Shown: positions 34,706 to 38,886, numbered from the stretch's first letter. The stretch: DNA of 64,000 nt from Candidatus Helarchaeota archaeon (GCA_019058315.1 JAHPZH010000001.1:213566-277565); one strand, 5' to 3'. Numbers and translations are program-made. Notes: generated by a model not told the origin, from the letters alone.

Positions 34706-35440
34706 ATGAAAAGAAAATCAAAGAAAGCTATAAAAAGGATAATGCTTTGTTTAAGCGTATTTATGTTAACGGGATTATTTTTTAATATTGTTTTTAATAA
34801 TAATTTATCCTTTGGCTGTCATGATTTAAGTTTTCAAGGTATAGGGGGAACTTCTCTAGTTATTTTTGGAATAGGAATGAATAGTTTTTCAGATTTTTTT
34901 ACACCGACTGATCAGAGGTCTGAATTAGAACAAAATACGCGATTACGTATTTATAATTTAATCCTTGAGGATGAAGGTATTCATTTACGAGAGGTCTGTA
35001 GAAAATTAAATAAGAAAATGGGGGTAATTCAATATCATATTAATGTATTAGAAAAAGCAGGGTTAATTAATTCGTTAAAAGATGGAAGGTATAGACGCTT
35101 TTTCGTGAATAATAACCATAGTTCAGATTCCAAAAGAAATCTAATAATTTCTGTTATAAAAAGAGAGCCATCTTTCAAAATATTACAAACTCTTATTGAA
35201 AATAAAAAAGTATACCACAATGATTTGGCAACACTTTTAAAAATTAGTAGTCAAGCAATAACTTGGCACATTAAAAGACTACGAGGATATGAACTTATTG
35301 ATTATGAAAAAGAAGGAAAGCAAAAAGTCTATTATATTCGTCAAGATGTATTACCGCTTCTAAAATCGATTTTAGAGAATGCAAAGTCAGGAATTAGTGG
35401 GGGTTCCGCACCACTTACAGAAACGCCAACTGGGATCTAA
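34706..35440 (+). CDS. Tandem winged-HTH (ArsR-like) transcriptional regulator with N-terminal hydrophobic segment
   Basis: RLRIYNLI..EGIHLREVCRKL..KMGVIQYHINVLE and a second HTH LATLLKISSQAITWHIKRL; N-terminal TM/signal segment. Confidence 0.85.
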   Translation: MKRKSKKAIKRIMLCLSVFMLTGLFFNIVFNNNLSFGCHDLSFQGIGGTSLVIFGIGMNSFSDFFTPTDQRSELEQNTRLRIYNLILEDEGIHLREVCRKLNKKMGVIQYHINVLEKAGLINSLKDGRYRRFFVNNNHSSDSKRNLIISVIKREPSFKILQTLIENKKVYHNDLATLLKISSQAITWHIKRLRGYELIDYEKEGKQKVYYIRQDVLPLLKSILENAKSGISGGSAPLTETPTGI

Positions 35441-36082
35441 TAAAGTTCCACAATTTTTACATGTATTTTTCTCTTTAAACATATCTTCTTTTAATAAAAA
35501 GCCACACTTCTTACAAAAACGCCATTCTTTATTTATAACTTGTTGACAATTTGGACATCTGTTATAATCTTTTCCCTTTTTAATTATTTCATTTTCTTTT
35601 TGACTTGGAACACTATATTTTAACTTAATCATTTTACCCTCAATTTTAACATCTATTTCCGAAATTTTAGAGTACAATTGTTTGAAAGCATGTTGAATTT
35701 TTTTGAGTTCAACTGATTTAAAACCATCAAATTCGCGAGTTCGAAGAATTGAACCACAATTAGTACAAATATTCTCATTAAGTATTGACGAATCATTTAA
35801 ATGTTTTTGATGAAAAGGGAAACCACATTTTATGCATGATAAAGTCGGCTCATCATCTTCTAAACTTCGTTCGCATTTTGAACAAAGTAAATTTTTACTG
35901 GATTTTGACATTTGAATATCAAGCGACTTTAATTTGGCAAGATATTTTGCTTTAATAATTTTAAATAGATTAGGATCAATTTCTTTCATCTCCAGTTCCC
36001 TAGAAAGTATTTGTAATATATCTAAAATGATGTTACGTTCAACCATAATGTTAGAAAGAACTTCGAATTTTACATTATCCAT
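35387..36082 (-). CDS. RING-like zinc finger + double zinc ribbon protein
   Basis: CSKC..CIKCGFPFHQKHL..CTNC; C-terminal CPNC..WRFCKKCG..CKNCG..WRFCKWCG. ATG at 36082 (ORF track uses TTG 36124). Confidence 0.8.
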   Translation of the reverse strand: MDNVKFEVLSNIMVERNIILDILQILSRELEMKEIDPNLFKIIKAKYLAKLKSLDIQMSKSSKNLLCSKCERSLEDDEPTLSCIKCGFPFHQKHLNDSSILNENICTNCGSILRTREFDGFKSVELKKIQHAFKQLYSKISEIDVKIEGKMIKLKYSVPSQKENEIIKKGKDYNRCPNCQQVINKEWRFCKKCGFLLKEDMFKEKNTCKNCGTLLDPSWRFCKWCGTPTNS

Positions 36083-36178
36083 AAATATAACTGTCCAAAT
36101 TAGTATTAAATTGCATACTATCAATAAAAGTGAAAAATTAATAAAAAATTAAAAAATAAAATTAATCTTAGAGATAAT

Positions 36179-36709
36179 TTATTCTTCTTCTACAGCAATC
36201 CCTGGAAAATACCATCTTTTGCCGGTAACACGATCTTTATGTGCCACAGCGATATTTTTTTCTTCGAGTTTTTTTATTTCTTGCTCTGCTATTTCTGAGT
36301 TTAGATTACATGCCTTCATTATTTCCTCTAGATTAGTCCAGCCTTTTTCTGCAGCTAATTCGATGATAGAATTTTCAATTCCTGTTAATTCTAGAGGTGT
36401 AAATTCAATTAGTACTATTTTTTTCTTTGTTTTCTTTATTGAAATCAATTTTTGATCTTTTAACTTATCAATTGCTTCATTCATTTCTTCAATAGATACT
36501 TGATCGCTTTGCATCCTCTTTTTATTTACTTCTAAAAATAATTGAGCAAGATCCATAATCCCATGACTTATATCAGGGTTCTTTCCAATTTCTAAGATTT
36601 CGTTAGTTAAACGCTCAATATTTGCTTTTTCAATTTCTTTCTTGGATAATTTTTCCCCTACTTTGATTTTTTTACCGCCAATTTTAACGGTAATTTTTCT
36701 TTGTGACAA
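36179..36709 (-). CDS. ESCRT-II Vps22/Vps36-like (EAP30) tandem winged-helix protein
   Basis: LTNEILEI...GIMDLAQLF..V.KKR....VSIEEMNEAIDKLK...PLEL....IIELA..KGW...EEI......AEQEIKKL...IA.....WYFPGI is collinear with the SNF8/Vps22 pattern (aligned from memory). Confidence 0.8.
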   Translation of the reverse strand: MSQRKITVKIGGKKIKVGEKLSKKEIEKANIERLTNEILEIGKNPDISHGIMDLAQLFLEVNKKRMQSDQVSIEEMNEAIDKLKDQKLISIKKTKKKIVLIEFTPLELTGIENSIIELAAEKGWTNLEEIMKACNLNSEIAEQEIKKLEEKNIAVAHKDRVTGKRWYFPGIAVEEE

Positions 36710-36720
36710 ATTTGTTCTCC

Positions 36721-37749
36721 CTAATCTTCTCCTAATTCTTTTAATCTGTTTTTATATCTTGTCATCATTTTATCGTATCGTTCTTCAGAGATGGTTCCAT
36801 CTATGAGCTTTTCATCTAATTTTAACATTAATTCACGGATTTTTACAACTTCACTTGATTCAGTAGGTCTAGTTCTTGCTGTATCACTTTTGATAGGTCC
36901 CATTATATTAGCTAATACTTGTGAATCGTAAACAGTACCTATTCCGCCTCCTTTACGTCTTGCCAATTCCTGCATAGCTTTGATTTTTTCCATATCTAGC
37001 GCACTAATTCCTGCATCTTGGAGCATTTTATATCTCGTTATTTCCGCTTCTGCATCTGTTACAGAAACAACTTTTTGAGTATAGGCTTTTTCTATCTCAT
37101 CAGGAAGTTTAACACTTATTAAATTCAAATCAATAAATTTAATTCCAAATTCGTTAAACATCTCTCTGGATTTAACTCGTGCTATAGATTCAACAGTTTC
37201 TTTCTGGGTATACACTTCCATTGATCCCATTTTTGACAATGCAGAACCTAAAATTTCCATTATTTCATCTCTAACCCAATTTCGAATGTCACCTTCATAA
37301 TATTTAGGTTGACCTGCTACAAGATTGGTGAGAAATATTTTCGGATCTTCGATTTGAATCGTCACATTTCCATAAGAGCTCATAGGAATCCTATCACGGG
37401 ACATTATTTGCCCTTCAGGGATTCCAAATTTAATTTTTAAAAGGCCTAAATCGACAAAAGTATAATCTGAAACTATAAAGAATTTATCATCAACTTTATG
37501 TCTACCAGGCCCTAAGACATCATAAATTTTGCCGTCTCTATAATAAACACAAGCTTCTCCTTCTCGCACTAGGACATTTTTATCTCCTTTTGGGACCTCT
37601 TTTCCTTTTCGTCCACAGTAGAAACGTTTAATAATCTCCTTTCCTCTTCCTTTATCTTTTGATGGAGAAGTAACGTACATATCATCAAGTTCCGCTGGAG
37701 TATAGTCCTTTTCCCATCCTAATTTCCATTCTTTTCCCATTTTAATCAC
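36721..37749 (-). CDS. SPFH/Band-7 domain protein (YdjI-like) with C-terminal SHOCT-like helical hairpin
   Basis: LVREGEACVYYRDGKIYDVLGPGRH, KFG, YG..TIQIEDPKIFL.NLV, FGIKF..L...SVKLPDE; C-terminus LDEKLIDGTISEERYDKM. Confidence 0.85.
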   Translation of the reverse strand: MIKMGKEWKLGWEKDYTPAELDDMYVTSPSKDKGRGKEIIKRFYCGRKGKEVPKGDKNVLVREGEACVYYRDGKIYDVLGPGRHKVDDKFFIVSDYTFVDLGLLKIKFGIPEGQIMSRDRIPMSSYGNVTIQIEDPKIFLTNLVAGQPKYYEGDIRNWVRDEIMEILGSALSKMGSMEVYTQKETVESIARVKSREMFNEFGIKFIDLNLISVKLPDEIEKAYTQKVVSVTDAEAEITRYKMLQDAGISALDMEKIKAMQELARRKGGGIGTVYDSQVLANIMGPIKSDTARTRPTESSEVVKIRELMLKLDEKLIDGTISEERYDKMMTRYKNRLKELGED

Positions 37750-38246
37750 TCCATTTCTATTATTTGTTTAGTCCCGGAAACAATATCAATACGTTCCTGG
37801 TATTTTTCTCTAAAATCTCTCATTTTTTTTATGACTTCACGTACCTGTTCAGTTACATCTTCTTTGCTGAACGCCCTACTATTAATATCTGAAGTATAAT
37901 CTTTAAGATCTTGAGCCATAAGTATAATTTCAGAGTCACAAGCTATCATTGCCTCTAATAATTTCTCTTGGATTGATACTACGTTCCAACCGGGTGCGTA
38001 TCCATATTCTGCTGTTTTAATTTTTGTGATGTAATTGTGAATATCGCCCCTAGCTTTTTCAATAATTTTCATAAGATCTTTGTTACCTGCGTTAACTGCA
38101 CTTTCCAGTGTACTGACCATATTTTCTTCACTTTCTTTCAAGAGCCTTATTGCTTTTTCTCTAACGACCCTATCGGTTTCTCGGCGTTCTTCCTTTTTTT
38201 TATAGCCACGATATCCTGGCACTAACTTCATCATCTTTCCTAACAA
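37746..38246 (-). CDS. Conserved alpha-helical hypothetical protein (PGYxGY..ExRRExD family)
   Basis: VPGYRGYKKKEERRETDRVVRE and AEYGYAPGW; GGAG RBS; 4-bp GTGA overlap with the SPFH gene. Confidence 0.75.
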   Translation of the reverse strand: MLGKMMKLVPGYRGYKKKEERRETDRVVREKAIRLLKESEENMVSTLESAVNAGNKDLMKIIEKARGDIHNYITKIKTAEYGYAPGWNVVSIQEKLLEAMIACDSEIILMAQDLKDYTSDINSRAFSKEDVTEQVREVIKKMRDFREKYQERIDIVSGTKQIIEME

Positions 38247-38685
38247 ATTTAATTCTCCTTATTGATTAATTGATATTTTTGTTCTAATTTTCCTCATGTA
38301 AAATTATTTTTAATTTGTACGTAAATTGTTACTTAAAATATATAATTTTATGGAAAATGGTAATGTAAATCGCATTTTTTTTTATGTTTTTTAATTTTTT
38401 TTATGTATAATAAGAATTAATAAAATTGATTAACTTTTTTATATAATCCGAAGTTTAAAGAGATGTTTTTACTAATTCTTATTAATAAAAATAAGAGAAT
38501 GATTAATTAATTTAAATTCAAAAATACAAATCAACCAAATTGCTATTATTTTTATTAAAAATTATGAATTTTAAAATTCTAGATTTTGATTATTAATATT
38601 TAAATTAATATTCACTAAAGGAAAAATATATTATATAGAAAACTAAACAAATTTGTAAATATCATTTTTCACGGGTGACCTAATC

Positions 38686-38886
38686 ATGAGTAAAATAGTA
38701 GAAATTGAGAAAAGTACAACCACAGTTGATAAATTAAAAACTAAAACTTTTATCGTTTTTAAAACAAGAGAACTGGCAAGTTTCATGAAAAAAATTCATG
38801 ATTTAATATCTGCTAATGATACGGCAACTGCTAGCCAAATGATCATCCAATTCCTTCAAGGGTTAGCTCATAAAATAAAAGGTTAA
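38686..38886 (+). CDS. Small hypothetical protein (66 aa)
   Basis: GGTGA RBS before ATG; amphipathic helical C-terminus; lies in an otherwise very AT-rich gap. Confidence 0.65.
   Translation: MSKIVEIEKSTTTVDKLKTKTFIVFKTRELASFMKKIHDLISANDTATASQMIIQFLQGLAHKIKG

What the first reader, a model, noticed from the sequence alone, without database searches (positions are those of the whole stretch)
35387..38246. Candidate new membrane-remodelling module: helical protein + SPFH + stand-alone ESCRT-II (Vps22/36-like) + RING/DZR operon
Seen: four co-oriented, tightly packed genes (4-bp overlap, 11-bp gap, <100-bp gap) downstream of a ~440-bp AT-rich gap. They encode a PGYRGY..ERRETD helical protein, an SPFH/Band-7 protein, a tandem winged-helix protein collinear with Vps22/SNF8, and a RING-like + double-Zn-ribbon protein. 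Established: Asgard ESCRT-II genes are usually described with Vps25, ESCRT-III and Vps4; YdjI-type SPFH proteins accompany PspA (ESCRT-III superfamily) envelope-stress loci in bacteria. I found no Vps25, ESCRT-III or Vps4 in this window. Inference: an ESCRT-II paralogue linked to an SPFH microdomain scaffold and a ubiquitin-ligase-like finger, possibly bridging Psp-type membrane-stress systems and ubiquitin-ESCRT sorting.
Basis: partly seen in the sequence, partly recalled or inferred. Interest (0 to 1): 0.85.

Follow-up and report, generated by a model that had tools for sequence, protein, structure and literature searches.

The report
Truncated Vps22 inside an SPFH operon
In a small group of Helarchaeota (Asgard archaea), the genome's only stand-alone copy of the ESCRT-II protein Vps22 has lost its N-terminal docking hairpin and sits inside an operon for a membrane-scaffold (SPFH) system that is widespread in prokaryotes, which suggests, but does not prove, that the scaffold rather than ESCRT-I brings ESCRT-II to the membrane there.

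Summary
Four tightly packed minus-strand genes encode:
- A: a four-helix protein of an uncharacterised family.
- B: a soluble YdjI-type SPFH protein.
- C: a 176-aa tandem winged-helix protein. It passes Pfam EAP30 and matches human SNF8/Vps22 at E 1e-13.
- D: a Zn protein with a helical hairpin, a C4H2C2 finger and a double zinc ribbon.

The interpretation needs three corrections.
1. C is not an extra paralogue. It is the only stand-alone Vps22 found in this 5.8-Mb genome. The canonical ubiquitin-ESCRT cluster on another contig lacks Vps22 and Vps28. C lacks the first ~60-70 aa of canonical Asgard Vps22, where Makarova 2024 places a steadiness box.
2. The core is older and wider. A + SPFH fused to a Zn ribbon recurs in other Asgard families, other archaea and probably bacteria, without EAP30. 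The Vps22 insertion occurs only in a narrow Helarchaeota clade (six contigs, C 70-78% identical).
3. RING/E3 activity is unsupported, and A is not PspA-like.

A second EAP30-like/SPFH pair in this genome, conserved in a sister genus, supports a real link. This scan has also noted Vps22-like/SPFH pairs on other DNA. No protein contacts were shown. The verdict is a new variant of known kinds, of moderate interest.

The parts
37746..38246 (-). Gene A: a 166-aa soluble helical protein with a conserved N-terminal PGYRGYKKKEERRETD head followed by a bundle of four long helices. It belongs to a widespread uncharacterised family that sits directly upstream of YdjI-type SPFH genes.
   Evidence: ORF. 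No Pfam family; NCBIfam LIMLP_15305 only below cut-off (27.6 against 210 bits; 53 of 60 family members match). 499 cluster representatives at E<=1e-3. AF2 model pLDDT 89, pTM 0.86, helices 18-53, 56-78, 90-126 and 132-157. No significant PDB match. ESM Atlas twins at TM 0.8 in Methanobacteriota, Bathyarchaeota and Chloroflexota. Distant members lie next to Band_7_1 genes.
36721..37749 (-). Gene B: a 342-aa SPFH/Band-7 protein of the soluble YdjI (Band_7_1) type (339 aa if it starts at the ATG at 37740). It has no TM segment and ends in a conserved helical hairpin. Unlike most relatives it has no fused Zn ribbon.
   Evidence: Band_7 E 1.7e-18 and Band_7_1 E 7.6e-15. Highest 19-residue hydropathy 1.16. 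Orthologues 78-89% identical. SPFH-DZR fusions in other Asgard families and in L078. Best match among 400 species genomes only 30% identical.
36179..36709 (-). Gene C: a 176-aa Vps22/SNF8-type ESCRT-II protein. It has a basic N-terminal segment (10 K/R in the first 30 residues) and two winged helices, and ends in GKRWYFPG. It lacks the first ~60-70 aa of canonical Asgard Vps22, where Makarova 2024 places a steadiness box.
   Evidence: EAP30 33.3 bits against a cut-off of 26.8, profile positions 90-215 of 219. Profile against PDB: SNF8 3cuq/2zme E 1e-13, Vps36 5e-7. 35-38% identical to the G126 cluster-encoded Vps22, aligning from about its residue 60-115 onward. Only stand-alone EAP30 gene in the genome. 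One clade at 100/100 on a 1.85 substitutions-per-site stem.
35387..36082 (-). Gene D: 231 aa from Met15 (the ORF extends to 36124). It has an N-terminal helical hairpin (residues 3-61), a conserved C-x2-C-x12-C-x2-C-x4-H-x2-H-x11-C-x2-C finger (about 66-110), a low-confidence linker and a C-terminal double zinc ribbon (176-228).
   Evidence: DZR E 5.6e-14; C1_1 at 2e-4 and Prok-RING_1 at 0.035, both below cut-off. Ligands invariant in 8 sequences. AF2 model pLDDT 67, 73-90 over residues 1-100. The hairpin superposes on ESCRT-I headpiece hairpins (6vme probability 0.96, rmsd 0.6-0.7 A; VIA Z about 7), but this is within helical noise. The N-terminal part is found only in close Helarchaeota relatives.
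36083..36178 (-). C-D spacer: 96 nt, AT-rich with oligo-T runs. It may hold an internal terminator and/or a promoter for D. Spacers of 89-120 nt occur at the same place in relatives.
   Evidence: Sequence read; relatives' coordinates. Function inferred only.
38247..38685 (.). AT-rich intergenic region (14-23% GC) between gene A and a divergently oriented, conserved 66-aa ORF. It is the likely promoter region of the operon.
   Evidence: Composition. The same layout appears in relatives. No promoter was mapped.

Best explanation
The locus joins two modules.

Module 1 is an old, widespread pair: an A-family four-helix protein plus a soluble YdjI-type SPFH protein that normally carries a C-terminal double zinc ribbon. 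By analogy with B. subtilis YdjI, it would build an oligomeric scaffold under the membrane.

Module 2 is the lineage's own Vps22. In one Helarchaeota clade this gene left the ubiquitin-ESCRT cluster, lost its N-terminal region (where Makarova 2024 places a steadiness box) and was inserted behind the SPFH gene. The zinc ribbons now sit on a separate protein, D, which gained a helical hairpin and an extra Zn finger.

Proposed working (inferred):
- The SPFH scaffold, together with A and D, takes over the upstream recruiting role that ESCRT-I (Vps23/Vps28) normally plays.
- It positions the shortened Vps22 at the membrane. The basic N-terminus of C may help with this.
- Vps22 then engages Vps25, and through it ESCRT-III and Vps4, all encoded on contig C10.
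- Membrane scission or repair would therefore be directed to SPFH-marked sites.

Shown: gene identities, operon order and its conservation, absence of another Vps22 and of Vps28, a second EAP30-like/SPFH pairing, and the ancestral architecture. Inferred: all protein contacts and the physiological role.
For: - C is a true Vps22-type protein.
- No other stand-alone Vps22 and no Vps28 was found in a 94%-complete, 12-contig genome. The C10 cluster holds E1-Ub, E2, RING, UEV, Vps25, Vps4 and three Snf7 genes, but no EAP30. The same-order relative G126 has Vps23-Vps28-Vps22 next to Vps25-Vps4.
- A-B-C(-D) is conserved with 5-11-nt junctions in six contigs from different samples, with C 70-78% and D about 50% identical.
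- The C clade sits on a very long stem (1.85 substitutions per site, 100/100), which fits a change of constraints after relocation.
- Independent second pairing: a 557-aa protein with a C-terminal EAP30 domain lies 4 nt before a 235-aa SPFH-like gene on contig C5, and the pair is conserved at 31% identity in the sister genus G128.
- Ancestral module without EAP30.
- Precedent in papers: YdjI recruits the ESCRT-III-superfamily protein PspA to the membrane (PMC8581546). Band-7 plus Zn ribbon occurs in the ydj operon (PMC11237479). SPFH with coiled coil and Zn ribbon occurs in methanogen ESCRT loci (PMC10936438). Asgard Vps22 dimerises, and Y2H supports eukaryote-like ESCRT-II assembly with Vps25 (PMC9192718).
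Against: - The A-B-C-D order was found only in a narrow clade whose flanking genes are also syntenic. Its conservation could therefore partly reflect short divergence time.
- None of 30 Vps22 loci and none of 29 SPFH loci from other Asgard species shows the combination.
- Two relatives lack D at the locus, with no remnant in the gap.
- No TM protein is encoded in the operon, so the membrane anchor is unknown.
- The sister genus G128 keeps Vps25 without any detectable EAP30, so Vps25 may not need a Vps22 in this family.
- The T-rich C-D spacer may separate D transcriptionally.
- No expression data were obtained.
Confidence: 0.5

Rival explanations
1. Neutral relocation. C is simply the organism's housekeeping Vps22. 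It works with Vps25, ESCRT-III and Vps4 as usual, and its gene landed between the SPFH and Zn-ribbon genes through rearrangement. The neighbourhood would then carry no functional meaning.
For: The arrangement is confined to close relatives that share flanking synteny. Asgard ESCRT-I and ESCRT-II genes are known to be loosely and variably clustered (PMC9192718, PMC10936438). D can be absent from the locus.
Against: The B-C junction stays at 11 nt (26 nt in L076/L077) with GGAG ahead of the TTG start across 70-95% identical copies. C lost its N-terminal region and evolved fast. A second EAP30-like/SPFH pair exists in the same genome and is conserved at 31% identity.
Confidence: 0.25
2. C has left the ESCRT pathway altogether. 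Its tandem winged helix would then act as a DNA-binding regulator, or as a non-ESCRT adaptor of the SPFH system, with no role for Vps25 or ESCRT-III.
For: Winged helices are typical DNA binders, and weak HTH_45 and Sso10a matches overlap wH2. The N-terminus is strongly basic. G128 keeps Vps25 without a Vps22. The stem branch is long. A scan note on another genome read a long Vps22-like protein as an SPFH-linked regulator (unchecked).
Against: The Vps22 signature is retained over both winged helices, including the C-terminal GKRWYFPG shared with canonical copies. A dedicated membrane-anchored double-wHTH regulator is already encoded next door.
Confidence: 0.12
3. D is a RING-type E3 ligase, and the operon couples ubiquitylation of cargo at an SPFH microdomain to ESCRT-II sorting, bridging Psp-type stress systems and ubiquitin-ESCRT sorting.
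For: The C4H2C2 eight-ligand pattern is conserved with cross-brace-like spacing. Weak RING, U-box and PHD rows appear in Foldseek. The genome encodes ubiquitin, E1, E2 and a RING protein on C10.
Against: No RING Pfam model reaches its cut-off; the best matches are C1_1 at 2e-4 and Prok-RING_1 at 0.035. All RING-like fold rows have E>0.2 and TM<0.4. D's double zinc ribbon resembles (29-40% identity) the ribbons fused to SPFH proteins in loci that lack ESCRT genes nearby. There is no PspA, and A is not PspA-like.
Confidence: 0.08

Closest known systems
Canonical Asgard ESCRT-II subunit Vps22 (EAP30, PF04157; asCOG cog.002769; Hatano 2022 PMC9192718, Makarova 2024 PMC10936438) and eukaryotic SNF8/Vps22 (PDB 3cuq, 2zme)
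   Same: Tandem winged helix with 35-38% identity to a cluster-encoded Asgard Vps22. The C-terminal GKR(W/Y)YFPG motif is shared. The match to SNF8 (E 1e-13) is better than the match to Vps36.
   Different: It is 176 aa against about 240-250 aa. The first ~60-70 aa, where Makarova 2024 places a steadiness box, are missing. The gene is encoded away from Vps23, Vps28, Vps25, ESCRT-III and Vps4, inside an SPFH operon. The stem branch on the tree is very long.
B. subtilis pspA-ydjGHI (samGHI) envelope-stress operon (PMC8581546, PMC11237479, PMC13713150)
   Same: A soluble Band_7_1-type SPFH protein encoded with Zn-ribbon protein(s) and a helical protein at the head of the operon. In B. subtilis the SPFH protein recruits an ESCRT-III-superfamily polymer to the membrane.
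   Different: There is no PspA, TPM (YdjH) or TM protein here. Gene A is an unrelated four-helix family. The ESCRT link here is through ESCRT-II (Vps22) rather than an ESCRT-III-like protein.
'Meth_adaptin' ESCRT systems of methanogens, which include an SPFH protein with coiled coil and Zn ribbon (Makarova 2024, PMC10936438)
   Same: A published contextual link between SPFH-plus-Zn-ribbon proteins and archaeal ESCRT components, including wH proteins.
   Different: Those loci contain Vps4, ESCRT-III and adaptin-appendage proteins and occur in Euryarchaeota. This locus has none of these and carries a eukaryote-type Vps22.
Long Vps22-like paralogue + SPFH pairs, and flotillin + OB-EAP30 pairs, noted by this scan in other Asgard genomes (AI notes)
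   Same: The same theme: an EAP30-type tandem winged helix encoded directly beside an SPFH scaffold gene. The long type is also present in this genome on contig C5.
   Different: Here the EAP30 protein is short and closest to the canonical Vps22, and it is the only stand-alone copy. The SPFH partner is the YdjI type, with its A-family companion.

Membership tests
EAP30 / Vps22-Vps36 (PF04157), ESCRT-II | Match to the family HMM above the curated cut-off | tested here: met
   33.3 bits against a gathering score of 26.8, E 5.3e-8. The six-frame genome search gave 31.4 bits.
EAP30 / Vps22-Vps36 (PF04157), ESCRT-II | Two consecutive winged-helix domains collinear with solved Vps22/SNF8 | tested here: met
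   The profile of C aligns residues 32-171 to SNF8 74-215 (3cuq_A) at E 1.2e-13. Vps36 scores 5e-7 and yeast Vps22 1e-3. This is by sequence; no structure of C was predicted.
Asgard Vps22 (asCOG cog.002769) | N-terminal steadiness box or helical region fused to the wH pair (Makarova 2024) | tested here: not met
   C starts at about residue 60-70 of the canonical 240-aa protein, so the N-terminal helices are absent.
Asgard ESCRT-II | Gene neighbourhood with Vps25, Vps28, Vps23, ESCRT-III or Vps4 | tested here: not met
   Those genes lie on contig C10 and C lies on C3.
Asgard ESCRT-II | Binding of Vps25 through the C-terminal winged helix | not tested
SPFH / Band 7 (PF01145), YdjI-type Band_7_1 (PF13421) | HMM matches above cut-off and absence of a TM anchor | tested here: met
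   67.7 and 55.5 bits against cut-offs of 23.6 and 24. Highest hydropathy 1.16.
YdjI-type SPFH (band-7 with C-terminal Zn ribbon; PMC11237479) | Zn ribbon fused to the SPFH protein | tested here: not met
   B ends in a helical hairpin and the ribbons are on D. Fused forms occur in L041, L042, L057, L061, L078, L085 and others.
Psp system (PspA/IM30, ESCRT-III superfamily) | A PspA- or ESCRT-III-fold protein in the operon | tested here: not met
   The profile of A against PDB gives nothing below E 0.007 and no PspA, Vipp1 or Snf7. The best Foldseek match is a four-helix IncA domain at E 0.2. The genome's Snf7 genes lie only on C10.
RING-type E3 ligase | Cross-brace eight-ligand Zn site recognised by RING models, with an E2-binding surface | tested here: inconclusive
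   A conserved C4H2C2 pattern is present. No RING model reaches its cut-off (Prok-RING_1 at 0.035) and C1_1 at 2e-4 is the best match. RING, U-box and PHD fold rows all have E>0.2. E2 binding cannot be tested here.
Double zinc ribbon (DZR, PF12773) | HMM match above cut-off | tested here: met
   52.5 bits against 27.3, residues 190-240 of the 245-aa ORF.
ESCRT-I steadiness box (Vps23_core PF09454, VPS28 N-terminus) | Helical hairpin recognisable as a steadiness box by sequence or fold | tested here: inconclusive
   D residues 1-66 superpose on 6vme chains (probability 0.96, rmsd 0.6-0.7 A, 24-27% identity, but E 0.75) and on 2f6m, 2f66, 2p22 and 2caz (VIA Z 6.6-7.2). The tool's own note says Z below about 13 is common for helical models. 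There is no Pfam match for the hairpins.
NCBIfam LIMLP_15305 family (NF047596) | Score above the equivalog cut-off | tested here: not met
   27.6 bits against a cut-off of 210. 53 of 60 family members match weakly. This is a distant relation only.

The most novel reading that the evidence does not exclude
In this Helarchaeota lineage an SPFH cage has replaced ESCRT-I as the upstream recruiter of ESCRT-II. The Vps22 that lacks its N-terminal docking region would be docked by the YdjI-type SPFH protein and by the Zn protein D, whose hairpin resembles a steadiness box. ESCRT-III scission or repair would then be targeted to SPFH microdomains. That would be a living intermediate between bacterial SPFH-PspA stress systems and eukaryotic flotillin/ESCRT coupling.
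Probability: 0.22. Interest if true: 0.8.

Novelty: new variant of a known kind. Interest (0 to 1): 0.55.

Why it matters
How ESCRT-II is brought to membranes in Asgard archaea, and how the eukaryotic order of ESCRT-0/I, then II, then III arose, are open questions.

This locus offers a natural experiment. It comes from a lineage that appears to have lost Vps28 and the N-terminal region of Vps22 (where Makarova 2024 places a steadiness box), yet kept Vps25, ESCRT-III and Vps4. Its only Vps22 gene now sits behind an SPFH scaffold gene.

If the proteins interact, this would show a second, ESCRT-I-independent route of ESCRT-II recruitment. It would also tie three separate observations into one ancient theme: YdjI-PspA in Bacillus, SPFH genes in methanogen ESCRT loci, and flotillin-ESCRT-0/I contacts in animals.

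The work also defines a widespread, unnamed partner family of YdjI-type SPFH proteins (gene A). All four proteins are small and soluble, so the predictions can be tested in vitro.

Tried and rejected
- Complex prediction of B + D with C as partner: ipSAE 0.00, controls not run, no verdict. It counts neither way.
There is therefore no expression or co-transcription evidence.
- A as a PspA/ESCRT-III or SNARE-like protein: no support. The IncA match (TM 0.5, E 0.28) is treated as generic four-helix similarity.
- SHOCT, Vps23_core or VPS28 sequence matches for the hairpins of B and D: none. B's tail gives only weak GvpG hits (E 0.003-0.15).
- C + D as a split form of the Asgard wH-wH + SB + three-Zn-ribbon family (cog.002441, Makarova 2024): considered, but I had no member sequence to compare, so it remains an idea only.
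- C-like fusions: the 605-aa proteins of G298/G299 are Vps36-like (PH + EAP30) and lie next to Snf7. They are not SPFH or Zn fusions.
- The L078 647-aa protein and the G128 644-aa protein are unrelated to each other.
- The sigma-70 promoter scan does not apply to archaea and was ignored.

Full report
**What is there**

The four minus-strand ORFs are real.
- A (38246..37746, 166 aa) has no Pfam family.
- B (37749..36721, 342 aa) matches Band_7 (E 1.7e-18) and the YdjI-type Band_7_1 model (E 7.6e-15).
- C (36709..36179, 176 aa) matches EAP30 above Pfam's gathering score (33.3 against 26.8 bits, profile positions 90-215 of 219).
- D (ORF 36124..35387) ends in a double zinc ribbon (DZR, E 5.6e-14).

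Orthologues show that D starts at Met15 (36082, 231 aa) and that B probably starts at the ATG at 37740. The junctions are then 5 nt (or a 4-bp overlap) for A/B, 11 nt with GGAG for B/C, and a 96-nt T-rich spacer for C/D. None of the four proteins has a TM segment. Upstream lies a 440-bp stretch of 14-23% GC.

**Organism and ESCRT inventory**

The window is contig C3 of a 5.8-Mb, 12-contig, 94%-complete genome. Close homologues are labelled Candidatus Helarchaeota.

A ubiquitin-ESCRT cluster lies on contig C10. It holds an E1-ubiquitin fusion, E2, a small RING protein, a UEV protein, Vps25, Vps4, three Snf7 genes and a HerA-like ATPase. It contains no EAP30 gene.

In the whole genome EAP30 matches only gene C and a 557-aa protein on C5. 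The same-order relative G126 has the canonical layout, Vps23-Vps28-Vps22 (240 aa) next to Vps25-Vps4. I used its Vps22 as query against the window genome:
- Gene C is the best match (35% identity, E 8e-20, query residues 60-238).
- Only weak single-domain matches occur elsewhere, inside long proteins.

The VPS28 model finds nothing significant. So C is not an additional paralogue. It is the only stand-alone Vps22 this genome appears to have, and it lacks the first ~60-70 residues of the canonical Asgard protein (alignment), where Makarova 2024 places a steadiness box. Its profile hits human SNF8/Vps22 at E 1e-13, Vps36 at 5e-7 and yeast Vps22 at 1e-3.

**Is the gene order conserved?**

Among 400 species genomes of the phylum, 358 have a match to C. 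These are mostly the canonical proteins of about 240-280 aa. None of the 30 best loci carries A, B or D nearby.

In the large protein collection, however, C has eight close homologues of 171-176 aa at 70-95% identity. Their contigs show two patterns:
- A-SPFH-EAP30-Zn protein in the same order, with the same flanks: L075, L076, L077, L080.
- A-SPFH-EAP30 without a neighbouring D: L078 and L079. There is no remnant of D in the gap.

The operon is therefore conserved, but only within one Helarchaeota clade that also shares flanking synteny.

On a tree, C and its close homologues form one clade (100/100) on a 1.85 substitutions-per-site stem. Its position among the canonical Vps22 groups is unresolved. 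That fits accelerated change after relocation and truncation.

**The core is older than the ESCRT link**

A-like genes lie immediately upstream of B-like SPFH genes in several other Asgard families. There the SPFH protein carries the double zinc ribbon at its own C-terminus, at 315-330 aa.

An exhaustive search finds 499 cluster representatives of A's family. Three distant members that I looked up all sit directly before a Band_7_1 gene. In L085 and L086 that gene is fused to Zn ribbons or DZR, in L082 a weak Zn_Ribbon_1 hit is on record, and in L083/L084 it carries an HTH_17 domain instead.

A folds confidently (pLDDT 89) as a four-helix bundle behind a conserved PGYRGY...ERRETD head.
- It has no significant match in the PDB and is not PspA-, Snf7- or Vipp1-like.
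- It has structural twins at TM 0.8 among hypothetical proteins of Methanobacteriota, Bathyarchaeota and Chloroflexota.

One Helarchaeota relative (L078) carries both forms back to back: A' + SPFH-DZR fusion, and A + SPFH + Vps22. The simplest history has three steps:
1. The A + SPFH-DZR module was duplicated.
2. The Zn ribbons were separated onto D.
3. The truncated Vps22 gene was inserted between the SPFH and Zn-ribbon genes.

**Protein D**

Eight Zn ligands are invariant in eight sequences, in the pattern C-x2-C-x12-C-x2-C-x4-H-x2-H-x11-C-x2-C. Pfam gives only sub-threshold C1_1, PLATZ and Prok-RING_1 matches.

The AF2 model is moderate (pLDDT 67, and 73-90 for residues 1-100). RING, U-box and PHD rows appear in Foldseek, but all with E>0.2. 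An E3 role is therefore unproven.

The N-terminal hairpin superposes on ESCRT-I steadiness-box hairpins:
- 6vme at probability 0.96 and rmsd 0.6-0.7 A.
- 2f6m, 2f66, 2p22 and 2caz at VIA Z 6.6-7.2.

Helical hairpins are common shapes, and no sequence model supports the match. I keep it as a lead. D's N-terminal part occurs only in this clade.

**Independent support for an EAP30-SPFH link**

On contig C5 a 557-aa protein with a C-terminal EAP30 domain is followed after 4 nt by a 235-aa SPFH-like gene, and then by a 786-aa gene. The trio is conserved in the sister genus G128 at only 31% identity, and the third protein there has a bacterial PH domain.

This scan's earlier notes also report Vps22-like/SPFH pairs in at least 17 other genomes. 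These are AI notes. I verified only the C5 case.

In print, three papers bear on this:
- Makarova et al. 2024 describe SPFH proteins with coiled coil and Zn ribbon in methanogen ESCRT loci, and note the YdjI-PspA parallel (PMC10936438).
- Scholz et al. 2021 show that YdjI is required to bring PspA to the membrane (PMC8581546).
- Hatano et al. 2022 show that Asgard Vps22 dimerises and that Asgard ESCRT-II proteins assemble in a eukaryote-like way (PMC9192718).

I found no paper describing this operon.

**Lineage context**

- G126 (family f3) has canonical Vps22 and Vps25.
- G128 (same family as the window genome) has Vps25 but no detectable EAP30.
- Three f2 genomes (82-88% complete) show neither.

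The upstream half of ESCRT-II is therefore unstable in this order. That makes a re-wired Vps22 plausible. It also means Vps25 may work without one.

**Best reading and its limits**

I read the locus as a YdjI-type SPFH scaffold module that captured the lineage's own Vps22. The inferred consequence is that the scaffold, rather than ESCRT-I, positions ESCRT-II for recruitment of Vps25 and ESCRT-III (confidence 0.5).

No contact was shown.

The rivals are:
- Neutral relocation of a housekeeping Vps22 (0.25).
- A non-ESCRT or regulatory role for C (0.12).

**Verdict**

- Observation: confirmed.
- Interpretation: partly supported.
- Novelty: a new variant built from known kinds (EAP30, YdjI-type SPFH, DZR).
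- Interest: moderate, 0.55. The general Vps22-like/SPFH theme has been seen repeatedly in this scan, and SPFH-ESCRT context is published for methanogens. What is unusual here is that the genome's sole Vps22, shortened at the N-terminus, has been inserted into a Psp-like SPFH operon, and the idea can be tested directly.

Noticed in passing
L008:5641-10388 (G000 contig C5), and L092:5056-9802 (G128): A second ESCRT-II-like/SPFH locus. A 557-aa protein (hydrophobic stretch, coiled coil, C-terminal EAP30 wH pair) is followed after 4 nt by a 235-aa SPFH-like gene and then by a 786-aa gene. The trio is conserved in the sister genus at 31% identity, where the third protein has a bPH_3 PH domain. The combination recalls Vps36 (PH + wH-wH) spread over several proteins.
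   Followed up: partly
L007 (G000 contig C10:98000-117000): The canonical ubiquitin-ESCRT cluster lacks Vps22 and Vps28. It has a HerA/DUF87-type ATPase (491 aa) between ESCRT-III genes, and an unassigned 134-aa ORF between the RING and UEV genes. The UEV protein gives only a weak Vps23_core signal (E 0.025).
   Followed up: partly
L075:6400-6560: In one metagenome relative, gene A is interrupted just after the PGY codons by an insert of about 31 nt that brings a stop codon. The caller therefore reports a 134-aa product. This may be an assembly error, a pseudogene or a small insertion.
   Followed up: no
window 38686-38886 (+): A 66-aa ORF with no family lies divergently upstream of the operon. 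A 66-aa gene at the same position is retained in all relatives checked (L075, L076, L078, L079).
   Followed up: no
window 34706-35440 (+): A 244-aa protein with an N-terminal TM segment and two wHTH domains (HTH_24, MarR-like). It converges on gene D and overlaps its 3' end by 54 nt, and it is syntenic in relatives. It could be a membrane-tethered regulator of the neighbourhood.
   Followed up: no
L072:4012-5946 (G128 contig C24); also G000 C5:496524-496694: Proteins of about 640 aa that end in a single winged helix. That helix is 37% identical to the second winged helix of C, including a GIRYYFPGL motif. These may be further carriers of a Vps22-type Vps25-binding domain.
   Followed up: no
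L078:314-5441: A paralogous module lies back to back with the operon in one relative: a 174-aa A-like protein, a 476-aa SPFH-DZR fusion, and two proteins of 394 and 647 aa without any Pfam family.
   Followed up: partly
window 36640-36694 and 35630-35680 (minus strand): C's N-terminus (KITVKIGGKKIKVGEK) and a segment of D (IDVKIEGKMIKLKY) share a short motif that looks like a beta-hairpin. It is strictly conserved in C and only partly in D (I..I.GK...L). Its meaning is unknown.
   Followed up: partly
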